Part shown: positions 3,001 through 64,000 of the stretch, piece after piece
Layout of the letters: every line of letters starts with the position of its first letter
How positions within the stretch are numbered: the first letter of the stretch is position 1
IMG/VR virus record: IMGVR_UViG_3300033463_000097
Strand: one strand, 5' to 3'
DNA length: 64,000 bases
Source: a virus
The notes under the pieces: model-generated
Databases searched by the model: none
The model's input: only the letters and a program-made list of their open reading frames with translations
Told to the model about the DNA's origin: nothing
Program-made: the position numbers and the translations under genes

Positions 3001-4302
3001 GGTAATGCTACTACGGCAACAACACTATAGACTGCAAGAACTATAACTATTAAAGATAATTCTGGGACATATAGTGGGGATAGTGTTTCATTTAATGGTA
3101 GTGCAAATATTATTTTAAAGATGCCAGCGACTATTGAAGCAACTAAATTAAAAACCGCAGTAAATTTAACGATAAAAGATAGCGATTCTTCAAACTCCGG
3201 AACAGCCGTTTCATTTAATGGCTCAGCCTCGGTAAACTTGCTTTTACCAGCGACTATTAAAGCGACATTACAAGGAAATGCTTCTACTGCATCAGCTTTG
3301 AGTCCAGGGAGAACTATTAATGGTACTACTTTTACTGGAGCAAGCAATATTACTACTGCAAATTGGGGTACTGCACGAAATATAACAATTGGAAATACCA
3401 CAAGAGCCGTTAATGGAAGTACAACCTATTCTTGGTCATTAAGTGATATTGGGGCAGCTGCCGCAACTCATACTCATAGTTATCTTCCACTCGGTGGAGG
3501 TATTATGACAGGATCTATTGGATATAACCATAGCACATAGAAAGGAACAGATCCTAGCTCTGCAGAAAGCTGGGCAATTAATTTAAAAGATTCTACAGGT
3601 CAAAACAATAATAGCCATTTTATGGCAAGGCTTTATCATGGGTTAGATGCAACTAATGGAAATAGAATTGGTCTTTATGTATATAAACCAGTTGCTGGTA
3701 CAACTAATGCAAGTTTTGTTATGCAATATATTAAAACCAATAGTGTTGCAGTAACAACCTTAGCAGGTAGTATATTAAAAGTTACATATACTGCCGATGC
3801 AACTAATCTTACATCAGGAGCACTTTAGGTATCTGGAGGTATTGGATGTGCAAAAACAATTCGTGGAAATCTTGTTTATGGAGCAGTCTGGAATGACTAT
3901 GCTGAATTTAGAAAAACAGAAATAAAAATAGAACCAGGTAGATGTATTAAAGAAATAGGCAATGATTCACTTGAATTAACTACAAAGCGTTTAGAACGAG
4001 GATGTGAAATAGTATCTGATACATTTGGATTTGCTATAGGTGAAACAGAAGAGTGCCAAACTCCAATTGCATCTAGTGGGCGTGTTCTTGCATATCCATA
4101 TGAATCTCGTGAAGAATTCGCTAAACACATTGGATGGGCAGTATGTTCTGGCCCAAATGGAACTGTTTCAATTATGACAGAAGAAGAGGAAGAAAAGTAT
4201 CCAAGTCGCATTATTGGTACAATTTCTGCGGTTCCCGATTATGAAGAGTGGGGCAGCGGAAATGTAAAAGTTAATGGGCGAGTTTGGATTCGTATTCGAT
4301 AA
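1..4302 (+). CDS. Giant tail fibre / receptor-binding protein (5' partial). Frame 1 reads through about 25 in-frame TAG codons and ends at TAA 4300-4302.
   Basis: All + strand track ORFs in this region (118, 550, 1588, 3121, 3622) are in the same frame. That frame has no TAA or TGA for 4.3 kb, only TAGs. The protein has fibre-like repeats (SHAEG..T.A.GN.SHxEG; TLYVNG..IYG) and a C-terminal region resembling the intramolecular chaperone of endosialidase-type fibres. Confidence 0.75.
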
Positions 4303-10323: not shown

Positions 10324-10352
10324 ATTATATCATATTTTTTTTATTCATGCAA
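10324..10352 (-). promoter_or_regulatory. sigmaA-type promoter TTGCAT-17-TGaTATAAT
   Basis: The reverse complement gives TTGCATgaataaaaaaaatatgaTATAAT upstream of the 10311 start. Confidence 0.55.
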
Positions 10353-10364
10353 TTTTATAATTCT

Positions 10365-10817
10365 CTAATTTGGACTCCCGCGCATCTCCAACGTAATATC
10401 TCTGTTGGCCAATTCAAAACGGCCATCTATCAAAACATCAGCCATTTCTAATATATGATTTAATTTTGTTTCATTACGAGCTTGAAGTTCCTCGTAGGTA
10501 TATCCAGTCCAAATATAAACTGTGACCATAGGGAATTTTTCTTTAACGCTAGCAACTACTAATTGTGTTAAAAATAAATTTTCCGGACATAAAGGTTCTC
10601 CGCCCATAATACTTAAATTTCTTTGAACACCATTTTTATCCATTGATTCAATAATTTCATTTAATGTATCGCTAGTAAATTCTTTACCACCATCAAAATC
10701 CCATGTCTCTGGATTATGGCAGCCGTAGCAATGATGCGGACACCCCTATGTAAAAAATGTGAGATTTATACCTTTTCCAGCGGCAATATCATTTTTGATA
10801 ATTCCTGCGTAACGCAT
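10365..10817 (-). CDS. nrdG: anaerobic ribonucleotide reductase activating protein (radical SAM), 1 in-frame TAG
   Basis: The N-terminus reads MRYAGIIKNDIAAGKGINLTFFTqGCPHHCYGCHNPETW (CxxxCxxC motif). The C-terminal part matches track ORF 10365..10643. Confidence 0.8.
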
Positions 10818-13051
10818 TATTCCATCACTCCAACGTGCTTGGTTCTATGATGAACCTCATCTTGTTTTCCAAGATTAAAAGCAGTGGTATAATTTCCGGT
10901 TAAATATCCGGTTACACGACGTAGCTGTTGAATATTGTGTCCGCCGCAAGCGGGGCATGTATCATTAATCTCACCTTGAAAACCGCAATCCAAACAAGTA
11001 TCACTTGGAACATTAATTGCGAAATATGGAATATCCTTATCCATAGCATAATTTACAATTTGTTCTAATGCTTCTGTATTATGCACAGCAGAAGCATCAA
11101 GTTCAACGTATGTAATACAACCCGCACTAGAATATCCGGTTAATTGACTTTCAATATCAATTTTTTCAAATGGACTGACTTGACGCCATACTGGAACATG
11201 CATACTATTTGTAAAGAACTCTTTATCGCTAACATTTAAAATAACTCCATACTTTTCGCGGAATTTCTTCAATGCAGTATAGCAAAGATTTTCTGCAGGA
11301 GTATAATAAACACCAAAGTTTAGTGAATATTCTTTCTTAAATTCGGCGCAGCGGTCTTTAAATAGTTGCTCTATTCTTTTAGCCAACTTCATTCCATCAG
11401 GAGTAGTATGGTCGCAACCAATTAGAATTTGTAAGCATTCTGCCAATCCTAATTGACCAATAACAATAGTGCCATGTTTAAGAGCGCTTCGAATTCCTTC
11501 TTCTGGAATATAACCTGCCATTGTATGATTTTCATACATAAATTTTGCACTTGAAGCATCTTGTGAGCAAATCCAATTAAAACGCTCAATTAACATATCT
11601 TTTGCTTCATGGATTTTTTTATCCAGGAGTTGCATAAATACTTCAACGATGCTATCATCATATTCACACATATATGCTTCTTTTGCCATCATAGCCAACG
11701 TTGGAAGAATAATAGTTACTGGACAGATATTGCCGCGACCATCTTTCAGCTGGCCGAGACCGTTTACATCCCACCCATTTGCGGTGCGGCAGCCCATTGT
11801 GCTAAAATATGTTCTCGGGTCATTAATATCATATCCTGCGTTACCAGACCAGTCAACATTGGCATAGTTTGGATATAAGCGTTTTGCAGTAGATTGTAAT
11901 GCTAATTGATATAAATCATAGTTGGGGTCTCCTGGCTTACGATTAACGCCTTTCATGCATTGAAATATTCCACAAGGGAAAATAGATGTTTTATGCAATT
12001 TGCCTAATCCTTCAATACTAACATCTAGTAATGCTTTTGTAACCATCCTTCCTTCTGGAAGAGTACATGTGCCATAATTAATAGAAGTAAAAGGCAATTG
12101 ATTTCCGCTTCTGGACTGAAGTGTGTTGAGGTTGTGGTACATTCCTTCAACGGCTTGATGGACTTCTCGTTCTGTCATATTCATAGCATATTGATAAACT
12201 TTATTCATTGTATCCTTATCAATATCTGAAAGTTCTTTATAACTAATGCTTTCAATAGGTTCATTTACAAAAATAAACTCATTAGCACGCTAGTAATTGG
12301 CAAGATAGATTAAACCATCTTTCCAATGTTTATAAAAACTTTTTCTCACATATGGAACCATAGTCCAGTCAAGATGAGTTGCACTTACTCCACCAAACTG
12401 TTGCAGACTTTGCAACTGAAAAATTACTGCTACGAGCTGGAACGCTGTGTTCACTGAACCGGCCGGCCGCACATCTGTTTGGCGAGTATTAAATCCATTG
12501 GCAAGTAAATCATCGAATGGAATACTTAAACAGTTATGAGAACCAACAGCATAGGCGTCAAGGTCATGAATATAAATCATATTACCTTCATGATTCTCCC
12601 TTGCCATTTTTGAAACTAAATTATCCAAAGCGTATTGCTTTGTCATATAGGAAGACGCTTCACCAATGCGGCCACCGAATGAATGTTCGTCAACATTAGC
12701 ATTCTGATTTTGAACGTTTCTTGCTTCCAGCTTTTCTCCAATAGCATCAAAGAAGTCAGACTTGATTTCTCTTGCTACTTCTTTCTTATAACGAAAACGA
12801 ATATACGCACGAGCCACATCAGGGCGTTCAGAGCGCATTAAATAATTTTCAACTAAATCTTGAATATCTTCAACTGAATAAGCATCAGCATCTATGCTAC
12901 ACTGTCCATAGATATCGTTTGCAATATCTCTTGCGGTATCATCTTCGTATAGCTATCCATCAACTTCAATAAAAGCACCATTGATAGCATTTATAATTTT
13001 TTGTTTGTCAAAAGGAACTCTTGTTCCGTCTCGTTTTACAACTTCTATCAT
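10817..13051 (-). CDS. nrdD: anaerobic (class III) ribonucleoside-triphosphate reductase, at least 2 in-frame TAG
   Basis: It has an ATP-cone (MIEVVKRDGTRVPFDKQKIINAI) and a glycyl-radical C-terminus (CGFQGEINDTCPACGG...RRVTGYL). Track ORFs 12953.., 12290.. and 10817.. are in one frame, and the separators at 12953 and 12290 are cta (TAG on minus). Confidence 0.85.
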
Positions 13052-13128
13052 ATATATCCTCCAATCTAAAAATTGTAGTATTTTTTTTGGGCCACTACAA
13101 TATTTAGGTTTTGTGATTAGAAAATTAA

Positions 13129-13410
13129 TTAGTTTTGCCCGATGTGGCGAATGAGGTAGTCTATATACCATTTAGCCTTTTCCAGGTCTTGGACACCATT
13201 CTTATGCTTCCATCGCCACAGATATTTAATTGCATTTGCGGTGCATACTGCTTCAATACCTTCAAGCCCAGTCGTGGCCGCAGCAAGCCCATCAATACAT
13301 TCAATACCCCCCGCCGTGTAATGGGCGGGGTGATTTACCATATCATTTGCTGCTTTATCTTTTTCATATTGCTCTGCTATATCAATAGCCCGCTTGTAAT
13401 AATCATCCAT
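13129..13410 (-). CDS. DUF3310-family protein (HPAHY motif)
   Basis: Contains VNHPAHYTAGGIECID. This family often sits next to phage polymerases. Confidence 0.55.
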   Translation of the reverse strand: MDDYYKRAIDIAEQYEKDKAANDMVNHPAHYTAGGIECIDGLAAATTGLEGIEAVCTANAIKYLWRWKHKNGVQDLEKAKWYIDYLIRHIGQN

Positions 13411-16400
13411 TATTCAGCCCCATACCTTTCTGTTGTCAATTCTAAATCTGTATTATTAACTATTTTGTTTATTTTATATAACTGATGCCCCGCAGAAGAA
13501 GCATACTTTTTCGTAATAAAGTCATCGCCGGAGCGAATACCTTGAACTACAATCATTTGTCCGCGGTTAAACCAACTCTTCTCTTTAACTTTCTTTGTCC
13601 CATCTTCTTGCTTCTCAGAGATTTGTTTATCAAATAGAGCAAAATATTCTTTACGGAACTTGACATTAACTACTCCGGTAGGAGTGAGAAGAGATACACT
13701 ACTCTTTACCTTATTCTTTGCTATGCATGTGCCGCAGATGCGATACAGTTTAAAGATATTAATTGTCTTGCCGGCCTTAGTAAATGTTCTTTCTACTTCT
13801 GGATTTTCTGGCAATTTAAAGAAATCGCTTATACCATACTTCTGGAAATTAATATCTTTTAATTCGTGGTCATGATAATAGAAACACATCGCTTCCATTT
13901 CCCATGATGAATAATTACCTTCGGCATATTTATCCCAATCCTGTTTAAATATCAGGCCATTGAGATTATTGAGAATAGCTTCTTTATCGGAGGCAATCCA
14001 CTCTCTAAATATATCCATCCAATGTTGGTATTCTTTTTCCCAAACTTTAATTTCGAGAAACTCATTCTCTTGAATTAATGCATCATATCCCATTTCTTGT
14101 AGAAACGATATTGCGCGTGCATCTAAGAAATACCATGTTGGACTTTCTTTATTCTTACAGACTGCTTTAAGATAACGATTGAACTCATATACTCTACGAG
14201 CCATTATTCGTTCATCTGTATCTTCGGGCAGCAGATTATATCTAATAAGCCCCGGCAGATTTTGTAATGTCAAACGAGATTTCTTATCACACGTTTCCCA
14301 TATGAACCAGGCCATACATAATTTGCGCTCCATCATATTATCAAATGCTCCACTTTTAATTAATGAAACCATTGCCTGTTTCTTTGGATTTACTTTATAA
14401 TAAAAATCTTTTGGAGATACATATGGACGCTTTGCAATAATATCTTTTACAACATCATCATTAACATTTAACAATGCCTTCATACCGAATAGAATTTGAT
14501 TATTTTCAATATCGGGTTTAAATCCGAAGCCTGAACGATTTATATCAACTGTACTTACTTTAATTCCGGCGCTGATAATGTCTCCAAGAGCCTTTGCGAC
14601 TTTTCCATAATCAGTACTTGTGTTCTTGCTTTCAGTTTCTTCTTCTTCCTCAAAATCTTCTTCATCCTCTTCAAGAGAGCCGCTATTTACAATCAAACAT
14701 GCGGTATCCCAATAAATTGGGTTCCAATGTGTCGCTATATATAATGTCTGCGCTCCAATGAAAGAATACGCTAGGGCGTGAATACGAGAGAATGAATAGC
14801 CCATCTGAGGACCGCATCCATGTTTCCATACGTATCGACCAAGAGCTGGAGATTTAGCCTGGTCTAATACTTGCTGCCGCAATGCTGGGATTTTCTTCAT
14901 TTGCTTTTTACCAACAATCTTGCGGGCTGCGTTAGCATCTGCTAAACTGAAATCGCAAATATTTTTATCCATTAGCATCAACATTAGACTTTCCTGGTCG
15001 GGAGGAACGCCATAGTCTGCGAGAAAGTATGGTTCAAGAGTTTTCTGCTCTTCCTTTGTTAATCCTTCTCTATCCATTTCTTTATACCATAGACTTATAT
15101 CATTCTTTTGCTTATAATATTTATCCAATGGTCTCTCTTCATCTTCTTCGCCCATTAATCGCATCAAACCATTTGCGGAAGACATTTCTTGGATAGAATG
15201 AGGTTTAAGTTTCTTTGCTACCTGTGCTCCAACTTGGCTATCAAATTGGAATGTATTAATTACACTTACATTGCCTAGTGCTTCCCAAATCTTTTCATCA
15301 TTAATGGGAAGAACATTAGGATGGAAGTATTTATCATAAACTTCTTTAAGAGATAGATTTTTTTCAATCTCACCATCTTCTTGCAGAAGTTGAATTGTTT
15401 GAACTAATTTATCTTGAACTTCGGTTACGAGGAAGTCATATTTTGTGGCGCCGCAATATTCTACATCATGTAGATTAAACTGACTGATAATCTCTCCTTT
15501 TGGAGTTCTCATAAAAGCACAATACTCAAATGGGTCACCATCTAGTAGAATAACACCAGAAGCATGAGAAGAGCGTTTATTAATTACACTATTAATACCC
15601 ATGATGATTTCCAGTAGTCCAGGATATTTACTTACTTCTCTTATAAATGTGGGAATTGGTTTACGATTCTTCTCTTCATTACCATTGATAACATCATCAA
15701 TATCCCATAGAAAACCACGCTCAGATGGAATAAGAGATGCCATATACTGTGCCTGGTCTACATCAATACCATCGGGATAGTCATCACTACGATAGCCTCG
15801 GCAAGCAGTTAGGATAGCAGATTTTGTGCCTTCGGTTCCAAAAGTAGCAATTCTAACACAACCAAGGTTATCTTTGGCCCATTGCGGCACGTCATCATTA
15901 AACATCTTGCTGCGCTCTTCGGCAATCTTCTTAATAACTATGCCAACTTTACTTGGACACAGGTCAAGATCAATATCGCCCAACTCAACACGTTCATCAT
16001 TAAGATAGCGGAAGAACGGCAAATTCCAAACGATTGGGTCTAACTGTGTAATACCCATTAGATAATGGTTTAGAGCCGCGCAACTTGAGCCACGTCCTGC
16101 GCCCACCATAGAACCGCACTCCCACATCAAATCAATATAGTGTTGAAGTGTATTTGGATAACGGAACATATTAGTTTCCAGTTTCTCACCAATGATGCGT
16201 TTTACTCTTGCTTCTTCTTCAAGACGTGCTAGATATGTATCGTCACCAGTTTCTAATAAATGGTTCCAACCTTTTCCTAATTCGTTGAGTTTATCCCAGC
16301 ATTGATTGACCCAATATCTATCTTGAATATCTTCTGACGCCAAAAGATATTTAAGATTTGGGAACTTTTCCATTTCATCAGCATATGGATTATTGTTTCC

Positions 16401-17363
16401 AAAACCACCACGAGGATAATTCTTTACTTCTACACTTGGAATGTTCTGTTTGCGGAAAAGAGAGAATGGCTGTATTTTATCCTGTATTTCAAGAGTGTTC
16501 TTTATAATCACATCAGCCCAATTTTCTTCGTGAATACTCTGTATTAATAATTCTTTTAATTCATCATATGACATTAGATAGGTGAATTCATAGAATGCAT
16601 CAACCTCACGGTCTCCTTCCTTGGAGTTAAGATATGCTTTATGAATTGGTCTATCTTCTGGACGAGCATAGTGCGCGTCGGTTGCTACAACAACTGTCGT
16701 ATGCGTAACTAATGAAATGGATAGAAGCGTTTGATTAACCAATATTTGTTCTGGAGAATTGCCGGGGGCGCACTCCAAATAAAAATCTTCTCCAAATAAT
16801 CTTTGACAAAAGTCAATAAATTCAAGGATTTTATTATAATATAAACGCGCATTATCCATATCACCAATCTTCTGCGCTGTTTTATATAACATAATTAACT
16901 GCGGCAACTCGCCACCAATACATGCGGTTGTGGCAATTAAATGTCCTTTAAATTTGCTGACCACTTCAATTAAATCTGCTTTTGTAGTTGGAACTCTTTC
17001 CATTTTGCGGTCTGTGTAACTTTCCAACCACGCCTTTGTAGATAACTCTTTTAAGGCCCTGTAACCAATAGCATCCTTTGCAATAAGTATGAAGTGATAA
17101 TACTTTTGGCCCGAACCTTTTTTATCTACAAGATATATTTCATTTCCAAACGCCAGTTTGAAGTCTGGGTATTTTTCTTTAATTTCATTGTAATATTTTT
17201 CGGCTTCAACATGTGCTGCTAGGACTTCATGGTCTGTTATAGCAACACCTGAAAGTCCTAATTTAATTGCAGTATCTATTAACTTTTTTGGGGAATTAAT
17301 AGCATCAAGAAGCCGAATGTTTGAATAATAAGTATGATTATGATAACTAAAATATGATGACAT
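13410..17363 (-). CDS. DNA polymerase III alpha-subunit-like replicative polymerase (N-terminal PHP domain)
   Basis: 1317 aa with no TAG. The N-terminus YHNHTYYSNIRLLDA...GVAITDHEV is PHP-like. Confidence 0.8.
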   Translation of the reverse strand: MSSYFSYHNHTYYSNIRLLDAINSPKKLIDTAIKLGLSGVAITDHEVLAAHVEAEKYYNEIKEKYPDFKLAFGNEIYLVDKKGSGQKYYHFILIAKDAIGYRALKELSTKAWLESYTDRKMERVPTTKADLIEVVSKFKGHLIATTACIGGELPQLIMLYKTAQKIGDMDNARLYYNKILEFIDFCQRLFGEDFYLECAPGNSPEQILVNQTLLSISLVTHTTVVVATDAHYARPEDRPIHKAYLNSKEGDREVDAFYEFTYLMSYDELKELLIQSIHEENWADVIIKNTLEIQDKIQPFSLFRKQNIPSVEVKNYPRGGFGNNNPYADEMEKFPNLKYLLASEDIQDRYWVNQCWDKLNELGKGWNHLLETGDDTYLARLEEEARVKRIIGEKLETNMFRYPNTLQHYIDLMWECGSMVGAGRGSSCAALNHYLMGITQLDPIVWNLPFFRYLNDERVELGDIDLDLCPSKVGIVIKKIAEERSKMFNDDVPQWAKDNLGCVRIATFGTEGTKSAILTACRGYRSDDYPDGIDVDQAQYMASLIPSERGFLWDIDDVINGNEEKNRKPIPTFIREVSKYPGLLEIIMGINSVINKRSSHASGVILLDGDPFEYCAFMRTPKGEIISQFNLHDVEYCGATKYDFLVTEVQDKLVQTIQLLQEDGEIEKNLSLKEVYDKYFHPNVLPINDEKIWEALGNVSVINTFQFDSQVGAQVAKKLKPHSIQEMSSANGLMRLMGEEDEERPLDKYYKQKNDISLWYKEMDREGLTKEEQKTLEPYFLADYGVPPDQESLMLMLMDKNICDFSLADANAARKIVGKKQMKKIPALRQQVLDQAKSPALGRYVWKHGCGPQMGYSFSRIHALAYSFIGAQTLYIATHWNPIYWDTACLIVNSGSLEEDEEDFEEEEETESKNTSTDYGKVAKALGDIISAGIKVSTVDINRSGFGFKPDIENNQILFGMKALLNVNDDVVKDIIAKRPYVSPKDFYYKVNPKKQAMVSLIKSGAFDNMMERKLCMAWFIWETCDKKSRLTLQNLPGLIRYNLLPEDTDERIMARRVYEFNRYLKAVCKNKESPTWYFLDARAISFLQEMGYDALIQENEFLEIKVWEKEYQHWMDIFREWIASDKEAILNNLNGLIFKQDWDKYAEGNYSSWEMEAMCFYYHDHELKDINFQKYGISDFFKLPENPEVERTFTKAGKTINIFKLYRICGTCIAKNKVKSSVSLLTPTGVVNVKFRKEYFALFDKQISEKQEDGTKKVKEKSWFNRGQMIVVQGIRSGDDFITKKYASSAGHQLYKINKIVNNTDLELTTERYGAE

Positions 17364-19891: not shown

Positions 19892-20021
19892 ATCTCTCTC
19901 CTTAAAAATAATACGCTAATCTACTTACTATTTCATAATCCTTGATAATTATCTATGGTGAAACATTTCCATTCCAAATATTCTATTTGCAAGTTCCAAT
20001 AACGTTTATTTTTACAGAACC

Positions 20022-21674
20022 CTATTCACTAAATAAACTCTCATACTCTTCTTGTTTTACTTTAAATTTTATTAAACAAATATTATTACCAAGAACGATT
20101 TTGATTGTAGGACTTTTATCAGGAGACATTAGAACGAGATTCTGAGCAGTAACTATAACATCGGTTATTGCAACAAGAGGCTCCGCGAATCCTTGGCCCC
20201 ACATTCCATCCAATTCTCCTATTTTTAATATTGTTTCTTTTTCTTCACCAATATTTTTTGCGTCCCATACAAAATCAACTTTATATGTGGTCGAGAAATC
20301 GGTAACTTTTAAACGAGCATCTATATAAGTAACTAAATCTTCTACTTTTCCTTCTGGAATTGAAACGCCGAAAGCACTTGCATGTCCAGAAGCATAATTA
20401 ACTAAACCGCTATTTAAGATAAACTCTCTAAAATTCTCCAACTTCACATTTGATGGGCAGCGTCCGCTTCCCATCCAGTCAAATCTTTTAATTTCACCAT
20501 TATCATCAGTTTCTATTTCCGGCCTCAATAACAAAACAGGTCGTTGATATTTACTAACAAGTTGGTTAGCAATAAGGCCAGTTAAATTTTGATTTAATTC
20601 ATCAGTTACTTTAATCACCAAAACAGGATGTTCCAATAACTCTTCTGTTTCAATTATTTCCTCAATTCTGTCAGCACTTGCTTCACAGGCTTTATTCTAA
20701 TGGTTTTTAGCATTCGCGCATACTCTACAACTCTAATCAACTCTAAATTCCATTTCGCCTTTACATCCCCGTTTTGTTGAAGGGATTTTTTCAAATGCTT
20801 TATAATCAAGCATACTTTCAAACAGAACAGTTTTTTCTTCTTGACTACCCACTCTAATAACAGCATTAATATATGGTGCTATATAGAATGATACTCCAAC
20901 AGGCGTTACGCCATCTCTTAATGAATATTCTTGTTTTTCTACAAATGCTTCTAAAAATGGATTACAAATATGACTTAATCCAAGACTAATAATTTCCTTT
21001 GTTTCGGCGTCTCGAATATCCATCATATCCGCAATAATTCCAATGGCAGCCAAATCTACCAAATCATCAGAGTAGTTTTTACCTATTACAGAATCAATAT
21101 ACTAACAAAATTTAAATACTACTCCTGCGCCAGATAGTGATTTATTTGGATAATCTCCCAGTTGATTATTAACGATACAAGCAATACTATTTGCGCTTTC
21201 CAGTTCATGGTGGTCTAGAACTAGAACCTCAATGCCACGGTCGCGCAATTTCTTATGCTCTGCTATATCGTTACTACCAGCATCGGGAACTATAACCAAC
21301 TATATACCATCGGGTACATTGTCAGATATAATACCGTGCTATTTTCCTTCTTGTAGCCGATAAAAGAAGTTATTTAGCACGGTGCTAGGGGCAATTTGAT
21401 AAGCATAATTCATTAAGAGTGCTGCTGATGTAAATCCATCAACATCGCTATCTACTTGAACAAAAATTTTATGATCATTGGCTAGATGTGATATAAACAT
21501 CTTTGCGCCTTTTTCCATATTGTGAAGTAGTAGCGGGTCAAGAAGGTCTCTTTCTGTGGTGTTTAAGTAATGATGAATTGCTTCGGGGACAATACCCCGA
21601 CTTGCAAATATCCGTTCAATCGGTGTGTATCCATTATTTACCGAGAGTTCCGGATATATAAGTTGATAGTCCAT
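20022..21674 (-). CDS. recJ: RecJ-like DHH-family single-strand DNA exonuclease, 3 in-frame TAG
   Basis: Four track ORFs share one frame. The protein has DHH motifs VQVDSDVDGFTSAA and VLVLDHHE, and a DHHA1 motif YASGHASAFG. Confidence 0.8.
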
Positions 21675-21692: not shown

Positions 21693-22796
21693 TCATAAGA
21701 ACACCCTCTCTTTGAATAATTGTAAAAATACTTCTTTACCCTTATCCACAGGAGCATCCTTATAATCGGTTAACTTATTCTTATCCCAAATAAAACTTAT
21801 ATTTATATAATTTTTATACTTACTATATATACTTACTAATTTCTTTTTCTACTTCTAAAATTCTTCGTCGCCTATATACTAAAACTATCTGTCAAACGCG
21901 ATAATAATTTCTTGCGCTCCTGCGTCCATCAGCAACTACATTTGGAAGGCTGTTAAGTTACTGCCGCAGCAGGCCGCAGAAATATCGCAATCAAAACCAA
22001 AATAGGTTTGATATTTTAATACACTCTTTTCTCCTTCAAACACTATTGCTTTCTTTACTCTTGGAATGTTTCTTCGGCTATTATTAAAATTGTATAAATT
22101 CATTCCAAGAGGATGATTATATAATTGTCCATTTGTATAGACTGGCCTATATTTTCCATATAGTTCACAGTCTGCCTCGCACAGATACCGACCGCGCAGA
22201 CCTATAAATCTACCATCTTTATCGAAGTGCGGAATGGTAATTTGGTCAGCACCGGGGAAGTATCCTATTTCAGCATTATTTAATACTTCTTGTGAAATAC
22301 CTTCATCAAGCCAGGGCCGAATTTTTACATCATAGTTAAAGCGTGATAATATTGTATCATCATATTCTTTTAATACGATATTTGGCACTCTGTTTTGAAT
22401 TTCCTATATACGGCTATATCCTGCGAATATTTTCCAATCTTCCAGCTAATCCGTTTCAGGCGCATTTTCTTCACGCCCAGACAAGCCAAAGCGCTAGGCT
22501 ATCCATCTTACAGCATCATTTAAATCAAAATCCAAATCATGCTGTAATTTCATAACTTTAATACATAATTCAAAAATATCAAAAGTGCCGCAATTACTAT
22601 AACATTGAAATAACCCTGTATTAGAGTAAAAATATAATTTGCGAGACGCTTCCTCGGTCAGAGGATTGTGGCATATGGTTTTTGCTATAATACCCGTATT
22701 TACATACTGCGGTTCGGCGCCCCAATCCTCCAACAAATCAAAAATTTGTTCGTCCGATAAGCAATCTCGTATCTCTTGCTTATCAAAAACTAACAT
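21693..22796 (-). CDS. dnaG: DnaG-type DNA primase (zinc finger plus TOPRIM), about 7 in-frame TAG
   Basis: A CHC2 zinc finger (CHNPLTEEASRKLYFYSNTGLFQCYSNCG) and TOPRIM motifs (AIVFEGEKSV, LLMDAGAQEIIIAFD). The frame runs continuously to TGA at 21693. Confidence 0.75.
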
Positions 22797-28823: not shown

Positions 28824-29792
28824 TCATTTTATACTATATCCAAAATCTTTGGCATGAAAATAAAGTTGCCAATAATCTTCGCGTTCGTTTAACTTATCTC
28901 TATCGCACTCTTCTACTACTTCAAAAGTAAAGTTCTCTACTCCAATAGAGTACATAGCGGGATAGAGTTTATTCTATGTCCAGTCCTCGGCACCTACGCC
29001 GCGCTTTACATGCTACTTCCAACGGTCTGCAATATTTGCGGCCTGTCCTACGTAACACATACCATTGTTAATATTGGTAATTTTATATATGCCGGTGCGG
29101 ACATTAGGACCGACCACTCTACCAATCATATCGGTAAGCGGCCTCTCATAATATACTTTATAAATTACTTTATTTAGCGGTGTTTTATCTCGTAGATATG
29201 GAAGTACTTCGCGCAAACGCGCAATCTCAGCAATATCTTCACTGGATAAACATATCCTATAAAAATCTTGCTGTGTTTCCATTGCCATCTTGCGCTATGC
29301 TGCCTCAAGCGCGACTTGAACATCTCGCTAAAGTGCAATTATACGTCCATTCCAATATGAGAATTCTTTTTGCTCTTTTTCAATCGCTTCTTGAAACTCT
29401 TCTGCTGCCTCTTGGAGAGTTTTAGCATACTCTTCTTTTGCTTCTTCTCTGCTAGTTTCTAATTGATTAGCAATATTTTCAATTTCTTTATCAAAACTAT
29501 TCTAAGCAATTTCTAATGCTTGATTATAATAATCCTATGCAGCCTTTGCCTAAGTTTCTTTTAGCGTTTCAAAATGCTACTAAATTTCAACATTTTGAGC
29601 CTAAACAATTTCATAGGTTTTTTCTTCTCGTTCTAACTTTTTAGTTAAAACATTGTACTCTTCTGATAACTATTTATTTTTTTGTTCTAACTCAAAATCA
29701 TACTATTTTGTAGATTGTATTTTCGGTCTTAATATAAGGTATGCCCCACAACATCCTACTATAAGACCGATAAGTATATATAGGATAGTCAT
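28824..29792 (-). CDS. GIY-YIG nuclease domain protein with an N-terminal TM helix plus a glutamine(TAG)-rich coiled-coil; about 14 in-frame TAG
   Basis: GIYKITNINNGMCYVGQAANIADRW...YFHAKDFGYS is a GIY-YIG domain. The reading frame is continuous from ATG 29792 (MTILYILIGLIVGCCGAYLIL...) through track ORF 29013..29288. Confidence 0.5.
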
Positions 29793-37060: not shown

Positions 37061-37227
37061 CAAAAACCTCTTTCTTCATCTTCACCTGGTAGTATTCGCA
37101 CATCTATATCTTCTGGAATACAAATGACTATATCATTAGGATAAGCCATTTCAAATGTTTTGTGAATCTGTTGAATTACTTCCCAGTCATATTTATCAGT
37201 TGGAAAAGTTACTATAATTCTCTTCAT
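37060..37227 (-). CDS. small hypothetical protein
   Basis: 55-aa ORF with ATGA overlaps to both neighbouring genes. Confidence 0.4.
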   Translation of the reverse strand: MKRIIVTFPTDKYDWEVIQQIHKTFEMAYPNDIVICIPEDIDVRILPGEDEERGF

Positions 37228-37928
37228 TCTAAACTCCAATCTATTGGTTTACTACCCATTTTCTCTAAAAATTCATTAGCCCGTGAGAAACAATAACTTC
37301 CAAAAAATGGGATACTTCCTCTTGATGCGCTTAACGGACTTGGATGACTACATAAAATACAAGACTTTTTCTTTTCTTCTAAGATTTTTATCCAATATTG
37401 AGTATTAAACTCTGGTAAAAATGTCGTTCTCAGCACGTCCTGAGCGTAATTTCCCCACGCCATAAATACGATTGGCTGCTCTAAAAAGGCTGTTTTTAAT
37501 ACAACATTTCGTGTAAAATCTTGCCATCCCCAATTAGAGTGACTATTTGCATGATGTGCTTCAACGGTCAGTGTTGCGTTGAGTAGCAGCACTCCCCGTT
37601 CAGCCCATGGGGTTAAGTCTGTTGTTGTAGGCATTGCGCAACCGATATCGGCGCACATTTCTTTAAATATATTCCGTAAACTAGGTTGAATCGGATTTCC
37701 ATTCGCAATTGAAAATGCTAACCCGTTAGCCTGACCTGGCGTATGATATGGGTCTTGCCCTATAATTACTACTTTTACATTGTCCGGAGGTGTTAATTCA
37801 AACGCGCGGAATATCTAATCCTACGGAGGGCAAATTATCTTACCATTTTCTCGCTCTGTTTTTGCGGATGCGGCAAGACATTGTGCTTTAAAAATTGCTT
37901 CTGGGGCTAAAATATCTGTCCATTTCAT
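37224..37928 (-). CDS. ung: uracil-DNA glycosylase (family 1), 2 in-frame TAG
   Basis: GQDPYH and HPSPLSASRGSIPFFGS motifs. The first TAG aligns with the Gln of the conserved E. coli PPQ motif, and the second sits in the position of the human PPPHQ Gln. Confidence 0.8.
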
Positions 37929-38023: not shown

Positions 38024-38353
38024 TCATATACCATAATCAGTATTTATGTCAATCGGTTCTTCCTCTTGGCCAGGCTCAAAAGGCAATATTTCATCATCAA
38101 GCAAGTCATTTAGAATTGCTTCATATTTAATACCATTTTTAGTATTTTCTGCTTTTGCCTTATTGTAGTAGAAACCTTGACTTACGCCATATGCGCTCCA
38201 CGCTACACCGGGGATAACGCTAAGCCAAGGTAGAGAACCGGTATATCCGTTGATAACACATAAAAAGGCTAGAACAATATAAGAAATTGTTATAATCCAG
38301 ATTAGTAACCCTTCCCAAATTAGTAATTTTTTGGAAAATTCTTTTTGTTTCAT
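38024..38353 (-). CDS. putative holin (two TM helices, charged C-terminal tail)
   Basis: It lies immediately downstream of the endolysin, and its ATG overlaps the lysin TGA (ATGA). Confidence 0.5.
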   Translation of the reverse strand: MKQKEFSKKLLIWEGLLIWIITISYIVLAFLCVINGYTGSLPWLSVIPGVAWSAYGVSQGFYYNKAKAENTKNGIKYEAILNDLLDDEILPFEPGQEEEPIDINTDYGI

Positions 38354-40056
38354 TTTAGTAATCCCAATTTCTTCAAAATTCTATGAACTACTGTAATGAA
38401 TTCCTCTCTGGTAATATATTTCTTATACATCTTGCGGCCCTTGTCATCACCTTGAATGAAACCATTTTGCTCGGCCCAAGCACGTGCTTCGGCAGACCAA
38501 CTTTCATTTGTGTCTTTATTTGCCTGTTCGACAATCCAAGTTTCCATCATTTCATTAAATCTTTCCTGTGTCATATCTTCATCCTCCTCTGCTAATGCAT
38601 TAGTGACAGTTGTAGCCAATTCGCCCAAACGATTATATAGCCAATCGCCGGGGCAGGATTTATTTGCGAACCAACGATGGACTGTAATAATCATTTCATC
38701 TGCTTTTGGTTCATAACCTAATGCCATAGTCTTATCACTAAACCAGATTAATTTTGTTTTATTATAACGTTTGCATATGTCAATACATAGTCTTATTAAT
38801 GACTAGAAGACAACTTCATTCATACGATATGGGTCAAATGTATCGCTTGCGCATTCAATAGTAATAGCGCGATTATCATTTGCCGTGTTTGAAGAACACC
38901 AACTTCTATCTTTTTCCTCAACATATAGTCCAATGCGGCCGTCCTTATCAATGCCATAATTTGAAGAAGCCTAAGTGGTTGAACGAGCAAACCACGCTCC
39001 AAGTGCTTCTGCAGTGCATTGTCCTACAACGCAATGAGGAGTAATTCTATCAATAGAATGAGTGCGATTTGCAGTCTTATTTGGTGATATTGTTTTTACT
39101 GCGATTAATGGACTATTGCTCATTTCTTGTTTTTCCTCCTCAACTTTTGGCTTTTCTGTTTCATTTACGTTAGTTTTTTTTTCAGTTACAATAAATGGAC
39201 TATATCCTTTTGATTGTAAATCTCTTAACATATTTTCAGCATTACTTCTTACTGAAAATGCTCCTACCTATACTTTATAATATGGGGCAACATATGTAAC
39301 AAAAGCATTTTTATAATTAGCCCCAAGGGTTTTGATTTTATCACAAAAAGCATTTGCATTTTGTTTCGATGCGAAAGCGCCAACCTATATTCTATATATC
39401 ATAGAAATAGTTTCAGTTGGCTATTCAACTGTTTTATATTCATCTTTAAAATAAATAGCAACCATGTTATCAACAGGACGATTGTAAGAAGCAACTGCAT
39501 ATGGCTTTCCACTATATAGTAATCTTGTGCTGCCTCCGCCATCTAAGTTAATAGCATAAGTGCAACCAGTTTTTAATACTATATCAGCCGCTTCGTTAAA
39601 TGTGGCTCCTGGACTATCAATAGAAAATGTATAGACATAATTTTCATCATACCCAATAATAGTTCTACGTGCGCGTCCAGAAATTTCTGTTGCCATAGAA
39701 ATGGGAGCTTTCTATCCGTTTACCACAAGTGGCGGATATCCAGAAATAAAATCTATCCAATTTCTTTCATTATCTCTACCATAGCATAAATTTCCAGTAG
39801 TATCAATACCCATACCATAAATTAAGCCAGTATCAACAGCTTTAATTATTCCATTATCAATATAATCCATTGTTGGTTTTCCATCGCTGAAATTAAAAAA
39901 TCCGCCATTAATTAGAATGTCGGGCTTATTATTTACACTATTATAATAATTATCTAGCGTCTAAGTTGGCTCCTTAGCTGAAACAAAATCAATTTTTTGA
40001 ATATGTTCTTTCTTTGTTTTTGTAATAAATACATTTGACTAAACCTATAATCCCAT
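38350..40056 (-). CDS. multi-domain endolysin: phosphodiester-glycosidase-like domain, two SPOR repeats, Amidase_2-like domain and a C-terminal SLH domain; about 8 in-frame TAG
   Basis: Track ORFs 39421.., 38971.. and 38350.. are in one frame. The domains show AINLDGGGST (NAGPA-like), VGAFASKQNA/VGAFSVRSNAENMLRDLQSKGY (SPOR), a PGRP-like YGIDKDGRIGLYVEEKDRSW...RAITIE, and SWSAEARAWAEQNGFIQGDDKGRKMYKKYITREEFITVVHRIL (SLH). Confidence 0.7.
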
Positions 40057-58826: not shown

Positions 58827-58840
58827 GGAGAAAACATATT

Positions 58841-59068
58841 ATGGAAAAAACAAAAGTTTTTATAAAAAGTGATACAGAAGAAAATTGGAATAAAGCTAAA
58901 AATTTTATTCCAAAAGAAAATGAAGTTATTGTATATACTAATTTTAGTCCAAATGGTATAAAAATTGGCGATGGAAAAACTAAAATACAAGATCTCCCTT
59001 TTGTAAATAATGCAGAATATTTTATAGAAAAAGATACTTTAATTATTAATACAATAAGGGGGGGATAA
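58841..59068 (+). CDS. small hypothetical tail protein
   Basis: 75-aa ORF with RBS AAGGAG. Confidence 0.45.
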   Translation: MEKTKVFIKSDTEENWNKAKNFIPKENEVIVYTNFSPNGIKIGDGKTKIQDLPFVNNAEYFIEKDTLIINTIRGG

Positions 59069-59069
59069 T

Positions 59070-60509
59070 ATGGCCGATCTTTCAAAAATTAATTTAAATA
59101 ATAGTGTATATAATATAAAAGATGCCACTGCCCGAACTAATCTTACAACTCATACTGGTAATACAACAGTACATATTACCGCAGCGGAACGTACTGCTTG
59201 GAATGCAAAGCAAGATGCATTAACTATAGATACAGCTATGAGTTCAACAAGCACTAATCCGGTATAGAATAAAGTTATAAATACTGCGTTAGGAACAAAA
59301 CAAAATACAATTACAGCTGGCGCCGGATTATCTTTTGGAACTGGCACAGCAGCCGCTACACTTGGACATAGTAATAGTATAACTGCGGGGACTGCTGGTA
59401 CATCATCGGCTACATCTGGATCAACATTAGCAGTTCCATATGTCACTTATAACGCATAGGGGCATATAACTGCTGTGGGTACCCACACTCATACTGTTAC
59501 TGGATTTTAGGCGCCAATTACTGCTGGCGCAGGCTTATCATTTGGAACCGGAACAGCGGTAAATACTCTTGGGCATAGCAATAGTATAACCGCCGGCACA
59601 GTAGGAACCTCAAGTGCAACTTCTGGATCCACGTTAGCAGTTCCGTATGTTACATATAATGCACAAGGACATATAACTGCCGTAGGCACCCACACTCATA
59701 CTGTCACTGGCTTTCAGGCTCCTATAACAGCGGGGACAGGGCTAGCATTTGGAACTGGAACGGCAGCAGCTACTTTAGGACACAGTAATAGTGTTACCGC
59801 GGGTTCTGTGGGTACTTCAAGTGCAACATCTGGGTCTACTCTGGCTGTCCCATGGGTTACTTTTGATTCTTGTGGGCATATGACAAACAAGGGTACACAC
59901 ACCCATACGATTAGCGGATTTGTTCCTACTGCCCCTTCTTCAACAGCTGTTGACGCAGCTGCTCAAGCTAATTCAATTGTAATAGGCAAAGCAGCAGCCT
60001 CGTCTGCTAATATTCCCGCTGCCTATGCATCGCTGTATATTAATATGCCGTGGAGCTCAGATTGGGCAACGCAATTTTTAATAAATTCACAAGGCAATGC
60101 ATATTTTAGAATGGCAAACAATACCACAACAAATTCAACAACAACCACAACGGGCACGTGGAAGAGAATTGCGCCTGCTAACGCAGATGGTATTGTTCAA
60201 ATTGCCAACGGTGGAACTGGGGCCAGTGCGTTAACTGGATTACTAGGAAGTAATGGTAGCGCTTTTTATGCTAATTATACTGGAAGTGTTGTAGCTGATT
60301 GTAATAGTGCTACAACTGGAGGACTTTACAGAGTAAATTCCAGCTCTACAAAGACTAATGCACCAGCTAGCGGAACTTATACTGGAATACTAATTGTATT
60401 TTAGTATGCTGCTTCAAACGTGGGTCAATTAGCTGTGCTTTGCCGTGGTAATGGAGTTTACTACCGTCAGTTATATAGTAGTACATGGAGTTCATGGACC
60501 AAATTATAA
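59070..60509 (+). CDS. tail fibre with three tandem ~63-aa repeats (..SITAGT.GTSSATSGSTLAVPYVTYNAQGHITAVGTHTHTVTGFQAP), 4 in-frame TAG
   Basis: Track ORFs 59070.. and 59808.. share a frame. In repeat 1 TAG occupies the positions that are CAA and CAG in repeat 2. Confidence 0.7.
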
Positions 60510-60521
60510 AAAGGAGAAATT

Positions 60522-63765: not shown

Positions 63766-63841
63766 TGGACGTACTCCTCGGATTCGAACCGAGACCTCAA
63801 GGCTTTGCAGGCCTGCGCCTTAACCATTTGACTAGAGCACG
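63766..63841 (-). tRNA. tRNA-Cys (GCA)
   Basis: A hand-folded cloverleaf: the acceptor stem CGTGCTC/GAGTACG has one G-U pair, the anticodon loop is CTGCAAA, the discriminator is U73, and CCA is encoded. Confidence 0.7.
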
Positions 63842-63844
63842 ATA

Positions 63845-63920
63845 TGGTGCGCCCTCGGGGATTCGAACCCCGACCTGACAGATTAAAAGTCTGCTGTGCT
63901 ACCGCTAACACCAAGGGCGC
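63845..63920 (-). tRNA. tRNA-Lys (UUU)
   Basis: The acceptor stem GCGCCCT/AGGGCGC is perfectly paired. The anticodon loop is CTTTTAA, the T-loop is TTCGAAT, and CCA is encoded. Confidence 0.7.
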
Positions 63921-63926
63921 ATATTA

Positions 63927-64000
63927 TGGTGGGTCATCAGGGACTTGAACCCTGGTCTCGCAGATTAAGAGTCTGGTATAATAGCCACTATACGAATGAC
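63927..64000 (-). tRNA. tRNA, probably Lys (CUU); the 5' end runs off the window
   Basis: The T-arm is CAGGG-TTCAAGT-CCCTG with ACCA at the 3' end. The anticodon loop is CTCTTAA with a 4-bp stem. Confidence 0.55.

What the first reader, a model, noticed from the sequence alone, without database searches (positions are those of the whole stretch)
59430..59770. Internal proof that TAG encodes glutamine: TAG in repeat 1 sits where CAA and CAG sit in repeat 2
In the tail-fibre gene 59070-60509 two adjacent ~190-nt repeats are near-identical. Repeat 1 reads tat aac gca TAG ggg cat ata act ... gga ttt TAG gcg cca. Repeat 2 reads tat aat gca CAA gga cat ata act ... ggc ttt CAG gct cct. TAG therefore occupies exactly the positions of the two Gln codons (VTYNA-Q-GHITAVGTHTHTVTGF-Q-AP). 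Independently, in ung (about 37870-37890) the first TAG falls at the Q of the conserved PPQ motif of family-1 UDG, and the second sits in the position of the human PPPHQ Gln. So TAG is a sense codon, most simply Gln, as in some crAss-like and Lak phages.
Basis: seen in the sequence. Interest (0 to 1): 0.85.

Follow-up and report, generated by a model that had tools for sequence, protein, structure and literature searches.

The report
Phage reads TAG as glutamine

Summary
Gene 59070-60509 (+) has four in-frame TAGs and ends in TAA. It contains three tandem 207-nt (69-aa) units. The two TAGs of unit 1 (59457, 59508) sit exactly where unit 2 has CAA (59664) and CAG (59715). Units 1 and 2 differ at 44 of 207 bases: 33 synonymous codon changes, 3 non-synonymous.

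135 in-frame TAGs lie in 34 of 64 genes. Reading TAG as sense raises ORF coverage from 77% to 95%. Pfam and PDB matches run straight through TAGs. A likelihood test on 105 TAG sites aligned to relatives picks Gln, 34 nats ahead of Glu, in 1000 of 1000 bootstraps.

TAGs fall on conserved Gln in the two SPOR-domain repeats, RecJ, uracil-DNA glycosylase (UDG) and a tail-fibre motif.

The suppressor tRNA is not in the window, whose tRNA array is cut at its end. Five relatives with the same array carry two Gln-like tRNA(CUA) genes 1-1.5 kb further on.

Core replication genes have no TAG; fibre and lysis genes use it for 44% of Gln codons.

This is a new, distant member of a known kind.

The parts
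59070..60509 (+). Tail-fibre-like gene, 479 codons, TAA stop, with 4 in-frame TAGs (59265, 59457, 59508, 60402).
   Evidence: The tail assignment is weak: PHROG tail protein at E = 2.5e-05, a faint XkdV_N hit, and an XkdX gene next to it. The TAG at 59265 lies in TSTNPV-x-NKVIN, which reads TSTNPVQNKVIN in two unrelated phage loci.
59310..59516 (+). Repeat unit 1 (69 codons), carrying TAG at 59457-59459 and 59508-59510.
59517..59723 (+). Repeat unit 2 (69 codons), with CAA at 59664-59666 and CAG at 59715-59717 in register with the two TAGs of unit 1.
   Evidence: 44 of 207 bases differ from unit 1, as 33 synonymous, 3 non-synonymous and 2 TAG/Gln codon differences.
59724..59930 (+). Repeat unit 3 (69 codons), more diverged, with Cys (TGT) and Val (GTT) at the two positions.
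37224..37928 (-). Uracil-DNA glycosylase (family 1), with TAGs at 37821-37823 and 37815-37817.
   Evidence: Pfam UDG. PDB matches reach E = 5e-54, and TAG 1 aligns to the Gln of PPQ. TAG 2 aligns to the human PHQ Gln.
38350..40056 (-). Lysin (NAGPA + SPOR + amidase_2) with 9 TAGs. Those at 39385-39387 and 39268-39270 fall on the conserved Gln of the two SPOR repeats.
19902..21674 (-). RecJ-like exonuclease with 8 TAGs. Those at 21102-21104 and 19953-19955 align to Gln in RecJ structure 8y30.
21693..22796 (-). DNA primase with 8 TAGs.
   Evidence: PHROG 47, E = 3e-32.
118..4302 (+). Fibre-like protein of 1394 codons with 25 TAGs against 20 CAA/CAG.
   Evidence: No Pfam family was found.
28824..29792 (-). 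GIY-YIG domain protein with 12 TAGs in 322 codons, the highest density in the window.
10341..13171 (-). Anaerobic ribonucleotide reductase NrdD (10817-13171) and its activase NrdG (10341-10817), 2 TAGs each. The NRDD domain match spans a TAG.
13410..17363 (-). DNA polymerase III alpha, 1317 codons with 48 Gln codons and no TAG. It is the largest of the TAG-free core replication genes. The others are helicase 17402-18613, DnaB 23000-24529, AAA_24 ATPase 25106-26083, 26102-27043, thymidylate synthase 27457-28245, ligase 30436-32343, gyrA 32399-34741, gyrB 34753-36606 and RNase H 36599-37063.
   Evidence: These genes have 0 TAG among 168 Gln-type codons, P = 3e-16.
63766..64000 (-). tRNA-Cys(GCA), tRNA-Lys(UUU) and tRNA-Lys(CUU): the start of a tRNA array that is cut by the window end. 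Relatives continue with Leu(UAA) and two tRNA(CUA) genes.

Best explanation
The window is part of a phage genome at least 132 kb long. The nearest cultured relatives are SPbeta- and Tsamsa-like Bacillus phages, at about 40% amino-acid identity. The phage uses genetic code 15: TAG is a glutamine codon, and only TAA and TGA terminate its genes.

Shown here:
- TAG is read through in 34 of 64 genes, at 135 sites.
- The residue inserted behaves in evolution as glutamine.

Inferred from synteny, not seen in the window: just beyond the window end the phage carries two tRNA genes with a CUA anticodon. They share the tRNA-Gln-like acceptor end (U72, G73, weak or unpaired 1:72).

Inferred from established knowledge of amber suppression (supE, and GlnRS recognition of U35, G73 and a weak 1:72 pair): the host machinery charges these tRNAs with Gln, through GlnRS or through GluRS plus GatCAB. 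They then outcompete release factor 1 at UAG.

The distribution of TAG is strongly non-random. Core replication genes contain none and can be translated by the naive host. This set comprises Pol III alpha, the helicases, DnaB, ligase, gyrase A and B, thymidylate synthase and RNase H. Primase, RecJ, NrdDG, UDG, PhoH, the lysin and the fibre genes need the suppressor.

The likely consequence is the model proposed by Borges et al. Full-length products of the TAG-bearing genes, including lysis and virion genes, appear only once the phage tRNA is expressed. This timing step is inference.
For: - Internal paralogue test: TAG faces CAA and CAG, with 33 synonymous against 3 non-synonymous changes.
- Coding density: 77% under the standard code, 95% with TAG as sense, 79% with TGA as sense, 88% with TAA as sense. 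Mean ORF length rises from 173 to 261 aa.
- Terminal stops are TAA in 44 and TGA in 19 of the 63 ORFs of the first, uncorrected gene list.
- Pfam domains span TAGs: NRDD 157-779, DHH 69-213, Radical_SAM 37-203, SPOR and PhoH.
- Likelihood over 105 sites puts Gln first by 33.6 nats, with 1000 of 1000 bootstraps and a validated positive control.
- In relatives at least 65% identical, the codons opposite TAG are CAA 17, TAG 8, CAG 6, AAA 7, GAA 7. The commonest partner is therefore two mutations away from TAG, so this is not just a mutational-neighbour effect.
- Conserved Gln faces TAG in SPOR (twice), RecJ (twice), UDG and the NPVQNKVI motif.
- Relatives L002, L003, L004, L152 and L153 share the order Thg1, CUA, CUA, Leu(UAA), Lys(CUU), Lys(UUU), Cys(GCA). 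The last three are the window's final three genes.
- 39 of 153 related loci carry a tRNA(CUA).
- Of 25 distinct CCA-ending CUA tRNAs, the five commonest acceptor types (22 tRNAs) all have G73 and 20 have U72, as in the phage tRNA-Gln. tRNA-Lys, Glu, Leu and Tyr mostly have G1:C72 and A73.
- TAG use is heterogeneous across genes: G = 234 against a simulated maximum of 130. Core replication genes have 0 of 168, fibre and lysis genes 51 of 116.
- The gene caller of the public collection already gives a 479-aa product for this gene.
Against: - No tRNA(CUA) has been seen in this genome itself. The one public contig found (ERZ27257207 k141_9022181) stops at window position 63754, before the array. 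Exact-match scans of three collections found nothing.
- TAG sites are less conserved than ordinary Gln sites. Gln plus TAG is opposite 53% of them in close relatives, against 67% for CAA/CAG sites. The likelihood margin is 34 nats, against about 77 for hidden true-Gln sites. A minority of sites with another reading, or mixed decoding, cannot be excluded.
- Nine genes have their last TAG within 15 codons of the TAA or TGA; in PhoH the gap is 3 codons. There, termination at TAG cannot be told from read-through.
- The amino-acid composition test was confounded. TAG-bearing genes are generally poorer in G- and C-ending codons.
- There is no proteomic evidence.
Confidence: 0.93

Rival explanations
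1. TAG is read through but encodes another amino acid. Candidates are Glu or Lys (the next best in the likelihood test), pyrrolysine (ARAGORN labels every CUA tRNA 'Pyl'), or Ser, Leu or Tyr through a long-arm tRNA.
For: - Glu and Lys are frequent opposite TAG in distant relatives. The majority residue per site is Gln at 21 sites, Glu at 17 and Lys at 13.
- Some distant relatives and phAss-1 carry 88-95 nt CUA tRNAs with an extra arm.
- A radical SAM gene is present in the window.
Against: - Glu is 33.6 nats and Lys 45.7 nats behind Gln. Ser is 55 behind, Tyr 117 and Leu 141.
- Glu, Lys and Arg are the usual replacements of Gln at variable sites. CAA/CAG Gln sites in the same alignments show the same pattern.
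- The repeat test and the SPOR, RecJ and UDG motifs point specifically to Gln.
- The CUA tRNAs of the closest relatives are 71-76 nt, have ordinary D- and T-loops (GG, GTTCGA), and share U72 and G73 with tRNA-Gln. They do not look like tRNA-Pyl.
- The radical SAM protein matched only general radical SAM and 4Fe-4S families (Pfam, PHROG), with no named Pyl-synthesis family among the hits, and it sits next to a Cys-rich protein. I ran no specific search for pylB, pylC, pylD or pylS.
Confidence: 0.03
2. TAG has a dual meaning. Most internal TAGs are decoded as Gln, but suppression is partial or timed. Early in infection, or at TAGs close to a gene's end, TAG still terminates and gives truncated or slightly shorter products. 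This adds to the main explanation rather than excluding it.
For: - Nine genes have a TAG 3-15 codons before the TAA or TGA.
- Core replication genes avoid TAG completely. That only makes sense if TAG is not always readable.
- Host RF1 is presumably still present. No release-factor or tRNA-synthetase gene was found among the window proteins scanned.
Against: - TAG positions are spread along genes with no pile-up at the 3' ends. Counts per decile are 16, 19, 20, 16, 10, 11, 11, 8, 12, 13.
- Nothing in the sequence can measure suppression efficiency.
Confidence: 0.35
3. TAG is an ordinary stop. The TAG-interrupted genes would then be pseudogenes, assembly or sequencing errors, or genuinely short products.
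For: Under the standard code the window still yields 95 ORFs of at least 60 aa, covering 77%.
Against: - There are 135 interruptions by one codon only. Reading TGA as sense gains nothing.
- Homology and Pfam domains continue across TAGs.
- Synonymous-dominated divergence continues after the TAGs.
- The same TAGs occur in independent assemblies.
- Relatives carry suppressor tRNAs.
Confidence: 0.01

Closest known systems
Genetic code 15 (TAG to Gln) phages of gut microbiomes: crAss-like, Lak, and the Jade, Sapphire, Garnet, Amethyst and Topaz clades (Borges et al., bioRxiv 10.1101/2021.08.26.457843). Validated by metaproteomics for crAss-like phages (PMC9523058).
   Same: - TAG is recoded to Gln, and the host presumably uses the standard code.
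- Phage-encoded tRNA(CUA), seen here in relatives only.
- No dedicated synthetase was found.
- Structural and lysis genes are heavily recoded, and recoding of replication genes is variable.
   Different: No close sequence relative of this phage was found in the GenBank phage collection: PolIII alpha and DUF2828 match at 44% or less, and megablast of 50000-64000 finds nothing. I did not place it in any of the named clades. Here the split runs inside the replication module: polymerase, helicases, gyrase and ligase are TAG-free, while primase and RecJ carry 8 TAGs each.
phAss-1 / proposed 'Phassvirus' group (OQ749652, 135,976 bp; PMC10607447), filed in NCBI's 'Caudoviricetes code 15 clade'.
   Same: - Similar genome size.
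- PolIII-alpha replication module in the same gene order: DUF3310, PolIII alpha, helicase, primase, RecJ, RuvC, NrdG, NrdD, GIY-YIG, gyrA, gyrB, radical SAM, PhoH.
- TAG recoded to Gln in about 28% of ORFs.
- 28-36 tRNAs across the three genomes of the group, with two or three tRNA-Sup-CTA; in phAss-1 a pair lies next to tRNA-Leu.
   Different: Only 14 window proteins match the first 100 kb of phAss-1, at 23-46% identity. The relationship is distant, at best family level, and not the same genus. phAss-1's last 36 kb was not compared.
SPbeta-like and Tsamsa/PBC2-like large Bacillus siphoviruses, and the Enterococcus phages H1 and VRE9.
   Same: These are the nearest cultured relatives by PolIII alpha (YorL, 39.8%) and DUF2828 (about 44%). 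XkdV/XkdX-type fibre genes and a SPOR-amidase lysin point to a Firmicutes host.
   Different: I know of no reports of stop-codon recoding in these phages (own knowledge, not checked here). Amino-acid identity is only about 40%.
E. coli supE (tRNA-Gln with CUA anticodon), the classical amber suppression.
   Same: The mechanism is the same in kind. A tRNA with a CUA anticodon and Gln identity elements is charged by the host and competes with RF1.
   Different: supE is a weak chromosomal suppressor mutation. Here the suppressor is a phage gene, present in two diverged copies in relatives, and it serves 135 codons in this window alone.

Membership tests
Genetic code 15 phage (TAG = Gln, TAA/TGA = stop) | Many in-frame TAGs in genes whose homology continues across them, so that coding density is restored only when TAG is read as sense. 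| tested here: met
   135 TAGs in 34 of 64 genes. Coverage rises from 77% to 95%, while TGA-as-sense gives 79%. Domains span TAGs.
Genetic code 15 phage (TAG = Gln, TAA/TGA = stop) | TAG positions correspond to Gln in homologues and paralogues. | tested here: met
   The repeat test. Maximum likelihood over 105 sites puts Gln first by 33.6 nats with 1000 of 1000 bootstraps. Conserved Gln in SPOR, RecJ, UDG and the fibre motif.
Genetic code 15 phage (TAG = Gln, TAA/TGA = stop) | The genome encodes a suppressor tRNA with a CUA anticodon. | tested here: inconclusive
   None lies in the window. The array is cut at 64000. Five relatives with the same Lys-Lys-Cys array have two tRNA(CUA) genes 1-1.5 kb further on. 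The rest of this genome could not be retrieved.
Genetic code 15 phage (TAG = Gln, TAA/TGA = stop) | Gln is actually inserted at UAG (protein-level evidence). | not testable with these tools
   This needs mass spectrometry. It has been done for crAss-like phages only (PMC9523058).
Genetic code 15 phage (TAG = Gln, TAA/TGA = stop) | TAG is not used as a terminator. | tested here: inconclusive
   Every ORF in the TAG-sense model ends in TAA or TGA, but that is true by construction. Nine genes have a TAG 3-15 codons before the end, and these could be real stops.
Phassvirus (phAss-1 group) | High nucleotide identity and synteny with phAss-1. The three described genomes are 80-86% identical in nucleotides. 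| tested here: not met
   Only 14 proteins match, at 23-46% amino-acid identity, with the replication module in the same order. Megablast of 50000-64000 against the phage collection finds nothing.
Pyrrolysine decoding of UAG | A tRNA-Pyl with its unusual architecture, plus pylS and pylBCD genes. | tested here: not met
   The relatives' CUA tRNAs have canonical D- and T-loops and a Gln-like acceptor end. The proteins scanned with Pfam gave no PylS or PylB-D family among their hits, though no targeted search was run. Lys-like residues are 45.7 nats worse than Gln.

The most novel reading that the evidence does not exclude
The code switch in this lineage may be gated by tRNA maturation rather than by tRNA transcription alone.

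In all five close relatives the two tRNA(CUA) genes lie within about 650 nt of a TAG-free Thg1-like 3'-5' nucleotidyltransferase gene. One suppressor of each pair has an unpaired U1.U72 first position, whereas the phage's own tRNA-Gln have A1:U72. A Thg1-like enzyme could rebuild the 5' end (U1 to A1) and so create or tune Gln identity. That would make suppression, and with it the expression of primase, RecJ, lysin and fibres, depend on an early phage enzyme.

A second unexplained variant in the wider clade is the 88-95 nt tRNA(CUA) with an extra arm. It might carry a different amino acid.
Probability: 0.08. Interest if true: 0.65.

Novelty: new member of a known kind. Interest (0 to 1): 0.25.

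Why it matters
- **Annotation.** Under the standard code about half the genes of this phage, 34 of 64 in this window, are split or truncated. Reading TAG as Gln restores full-length fibre, lysin, primase, RecJ, NrdD, UDG and PhoH proteins.
- **Biology.** This adds a Firmicutes-type phage lineage with a PolIII-alpha replication module to the list of code-15 phages. It has no close relative in GenBank.
- **The split inside the replication module.** There are 0 TAGs among 168 Gln codons in the core replication genes, but 8 each in primase and RecJ. This is a clean natural case for testing the idea that recoding times gene expression.
- **The method.** The internal-repeat argument is a neat self-contained proof, but it does not change what is known about phage genetic codes.

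Tried and rejected
- **Retrieving the rest of this genome to see its own tRNA(CUA).**
  - Exact-pattern scans of viral, metagenome and genome contigs gave 0 hits.
  - Look-up of the 515-aa protein: not on record.
  - The 145-aa protein led to ENA contig k141_9022181, which ends at window position 63754, before the array.
  - A homologue search with the relatives' Thg1 protein and four contig look-ups found only other relatives.
- **Amino-acid and codon composition test.** I asked whether TAG-bearing genes lack one residue. Gln is lower by 0.7 points and CAG is the most depleted G-ending codon. But Asp, Lys, Leu and Glu also differ, and G- and C-ending codons are lower in general, so the test is confounded. 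I used it only as weak support.
- **First alignment tally, on the 51-64 kb genes only.** It gave Glu, Lys and Arg ahead of Gln in raw counts. That reflected many redundant, distant hits at variable sites. Site weighting, more loci and an empirical substitution model resolved it.
- **NrdD.** Both TAGs fall in variable or gapped regions of the PDB alignments and are uninformative.
- **ORF 25520-27019 (+).** This ORF from my first gene list is an antisense artefact. It was replaced by 25106-26083 (-) and 26102-27043 (-), which corrected the TAG count from 136 to 135.
- **Nearest-neighbour identity of the CUA tRNAs among 631 phage tRNAs.** It favours tRNA-Gln only weakly, at 70-76% identity, with Asn, Trp, Met, Gly and Lys tRNAs scoring similarly. 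The acceptor-end features were more discriminating.
Full report
**The observation**

Gene 59070-60509 (+) runs from ATG to TAA and contains four in-frame TAGs, at 59265, 59457, 59508 and 60402. Tandem Repeats Finder reports a 207-nt period. In frame these are three 69-codon units starting at 59310, 59517 and 59724.

The TAGs at 59457 and 59508 in unit 1 are in exact register with CAA (59664) and CAG (59715) in unit 2. Unit 3 has Cys and Val at those positions.

Units 1 and 2 differ at 44 of 207 bases. Of the codons that differ, 33 are synonymous, 3 non-synonymous and 2 are the TAG/Gln pairs. The protein is therefore conserved while the DNA has drifted, and this continues past both TAGs. That is incompatible with termination there. 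It also makes it very unlikely that TAG stands for anything but the residue at the paralogous position.

The period is 207 nt, not about 190. There are three units, not two. The ung TAGs are at 37821-37823 and 37815-37817 rather than 37870-37890.

The same sequence occurs in an independent ENA assembly with one mismatch in 11 kb, at 61400 and outside the gene. A Logan contig carries the neighbouring gene with its three TAGs unchanged.

**The whole window**

With TAG read as sense, a non-overlapping ORF set covers 95% of the window, against 77% under the standard code, 79% with TGA as sense and 88% with TAA as sense. Mean ORF length rises from 173 to 261 aa.

After removing one antisense artefact there are 64 genes, of which 34 carry 135 in-frame TAGs. 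By construction every ORF in this model ends in TAA or TGA; in the first, uncorrected list of 63 ORFs the counts were TAA 44 and TGA 19.

Pfam, PHROG and PDB matches run across TAGs in:
- NrdD and NrdG
- RecJ
- primase
- UDG
- a NAGPA-SPOR-amidase lysin
- PhoH
- a radical SAM enzyme
- a GIY-YIG protein

**Which amino acid**

I fetched 148 related loci from IMG/VR around four TAG-free anchor genes. I translated them with TAG masked as X and aligned every window protein to them.

105 TAG sites had at least one aligned residue. I built a substitution table from the same alignments and gave each site weight one. On that basis Gln is the maximum-likelihood meaning:
- Glu is 33.6 nats behind
- Lys is 45.7 nats behind
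- Ser is 55 nats behind
- every other residue is further behind still

Gln wins 1000 of 1000 bootstraps over sites.

As a positive control I hid 105 sites of a known residue and re-inferred it. The correct residue came back in 40 of 40 trials for all 20 amino acids.

In relatives at least 65% identical, the codons opposite TAG are CAA 17, TAG 8, CAG 6, AAA 7 and GAA 7. The commonest partner, CAA, is two mutations from TAG, so the signal is not a mutational-neighbour artefact.

Proteins from standard-code organisms agree at conserved positions:
- Both SPOR repeats of the lysin (YRI-x-VGAF and YKV-x-VGAF) align to YKVQIGAF of B. subtilis CwlC.
- Two RecJ TAGs align to Gln in structure 8y30.
- The first UDG TAG aligns to the Gln of PPQ, and the second to the human PHQ Gln.
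- The first TAG of the fibre gene lies in TSTNPV-x-NKVIN, which is TSTNPVQNKVIN in two other phages.

So three of the four TAGs in the flagged gene map to Gln.

Caveats:
- TAG sites are less conserved than CAA/CAG sites. Gln plus TAG faces 53% of them, against 67% for CAA/CAG sites in close relatives.
- A composition test was confounded by a general codon-usage difference between TAG-bearing and TAG-free genes.

**The suppressor tRNA**

ARAGORN finds only tRNA-Cys(GCA), tRNA-Lys(UUU) and tRNA-Lys(CUU) in the window, at 63766-64002 (-). The last of these is cut by the window end.

Five relatives have the same three genes in the same order, then Leu(UAA), then two tRNA(CUA) genes, then a Thg1-like gene. 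These relatives are L002 and L003 (85% amino-acid identity in the neighbouring DUF2828 protein), L004, L152 and L153. In all, 39 of 153 related loci carry a tRNA(CUA).

ARAGORN's 'Pyl' label is only a name for the anticodon. These tRNAs are 71-76 nt with ordinary D- and T-loops.

Their acceptor ends nearly always have U72 and G73, mostly with an unpaired U1.U72. That matches the phage tRNA-Gln (A1:U72 or G1.U72, with G73). It differs from tRNA-Lys, Glu, Leu and Tyr, which mostly have G1:C72 and A73. A weak first pair, G73 and U35 are the classical GlnRS identity elements; this is established knowledge, not tested here.

I could not obtain the part of this genome beyond 64000. The suppressor is therefore inferred for this phage, not shown.

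**Distribution of TAG and likely logic**

TAG makes up 19% of Gln-type codons overall, but very unevenly: G = 234 against a simulated maximum of 130 in 20,000 trials.

TAG-free genes:
- Pol III alpha
- two helicases (a RecD/PIF1-like helicase and DnaB)
- an AAA_24 ATPase and its neighbour
- thymidylate synthase
- NAD ligase
- gyrase A and B
- RNase H

Together these have 0 TAG in 168 Gln-type codons (P = 3e-16).

Fibre and lysis genes have 51 of 116. Primase and RecJ have 8 each.

This fits the published proposal that recoding withholds late and lytic functions until the phage has changed the translation environment (bioRxiv 10.1101/2021.08.26.457843). Here the boundary runs through the replication module.

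No release factor or tRNA synthetase was found among the window proteins scanned. Nine genes have a TAG 3-15 codons before their TAA or TGA, and I cannot say whether these are read through or act as stops.

**What the phage is**

- The window matches ENA contig ERZ27257207 k141_9022181, which is 132,035 bp.
- The public gene calls on that contig already give the 479-aa fibre product, so an automatic pipeline has already read TAG through.
- Megablast of 50000-64000 against the GenBank phage collection finds nothing.
- By protein, the nearest cultured phages are SPbeta-like (PolIII alpha YorL, 39.8%), Enterococcus H1/VRE9 (38.6%) and Tsamsa/PBC2-like phages (DUF2828, about 44%).
- phAss-1, a described 136-kb code-15 gut phage, shares the replication module in the same order at 23-46% identity. 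It also has a CUA-CUA-Leu tRNA cluster.
- XkdV/XkdX-type fibre genes, a CwlC-like SPOR amidase and an SLH-domain protein in relatives point to a Firmicutes host. This is inference.

**Comparison with what is known, and verdict**

TAG-to-Gln recoding with phage suppressor tRNAs is established for many gut phage clades. It has been confirmed by metaproteomics for crAss-like phages (PMC9523058), described for a related PolIII-alpha phage group (PMC10607447), and recognised in NCBI taxonomy.

But the finding is a new, distant member of a known kind, not a new phenomenon.

Interest is 0.25. Confidence that TAG is sense is about 0.97, and that it is Gln about 0.93.

Noticed in passing
L002 5205-6041 (also L004, L152 910-1746, L153 146-982); outside the window: A TAG-free Thg1-like tRNA 3'-5' nucleotidyltransferase gene (PF04446) lies about 650 nt from the pair of tRNA(CUA) genes in every close relative. 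One suppressor of each pair has an unpaired U1.U72, whereas the phage tRNA-Gln have A1:U72. Possible 5'-end repair or editing of the suppressor; alternatively the enzyme simply serves a phage tRNA-His.
   Followed up: partly
L005 4564-4654, L006 6905-6995, L021 2832-2926, L042 1115-1206, L048 6276-6365, L062 3072-3160, L075 3153-3241; phAss-1 62445-62532: Long tRNA(CUA) genes of 88-95 nt, with an extra arm in the variable region. Several have a tRNA-Gln-like U1:A72 and G73 acceptor end. Their amino-acid identity is unknown; they may be a second type of amber suppressor in the wider clade.
   Followed up: no
L032 1109-1181: A relative carries a tRNA with anticodon UUA, a candidate ochre (TAA) suppressor. 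This suggests that the stop codon recoded varies within the clade.
   Followed up: no
window 49644-50987 and 61053-62600: Two TAG-free genes, one RNA-ligase-like and one DUF2828/DUF7788. They have GC of 0.50 and 0.54 against 0.37 for the window. Gln is encoded only by CAG (0 CAA). A 507-codon antisense ORF lies at 61170-62693. These are compositional outliers, probably recent acquisitions.
   Followed up: partly
window 42728-44074 and 44391-45278; L002 836-2068 and 2078-2773: A radical SAM enzyme (9 TAGs; PHROG 1802) is paired with a Cys-rich protein full of GCxGxC-type repeats (295 aa). The same pair is conserved next to the tRNA region in relative L002. This looks like a maturase and substrate pair; function unknown.
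   Followed up: no
window 45485-46273, 46266-46883, 49644-50987, 53296-54120: An RNA-repair-like gene set: metallophosphatase, AAA_33 (polynucleotide-kinase-like) kinase, RNA ligase and an RlaP-type nucleotidyltransferase. Together with the large tRNA array, and with Thg1 and tmRNA genes in relatives (L006, L010), this points to heavy investment in tRNA and translation maintenance.
   Followed up: no
window 28824-29792: A GIY-YIG domain protein has the highest TAG density in the window, 12 in 322 codons. Ten of the 12 lie in the N-terminal coiled-coil half, ahead of the nuclease domain.
   Followed up: no
window 40094-41440, 41649-42083, 10341-10817, 57423-58703, 28536-28814, 42728-44074, 5186-5611, 54134-54649, 4635-5186: In nine genes the last TAG lies 3-15 codons before the TAA or TGA stop; in PhoH the gap is 3 codons. 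Sequence alone cannot tell whether these TAGs are decoded or still terminate.
   Followed up: partly
window 25106-27043: The longest ORF here, 25520-27019 (+), 499 codons, is an antisense artefact. It overlies two real TAG-free genes on the minus strand: AAA_24 ATPase 25106-26083 and a 313-aa protein 26102-27043.
   Followed up: yes
whole window: TAG-free genes use more G- and C-ending codons than TAG-bearing genes. Examples: CAG share of CAA+CAG is 0.45 against 0.21, and AAG share of AAA+AAG is 0.40 against 0.25. This is a second layer of codon-usage difference between the two gene sets.
   Followed up: partly
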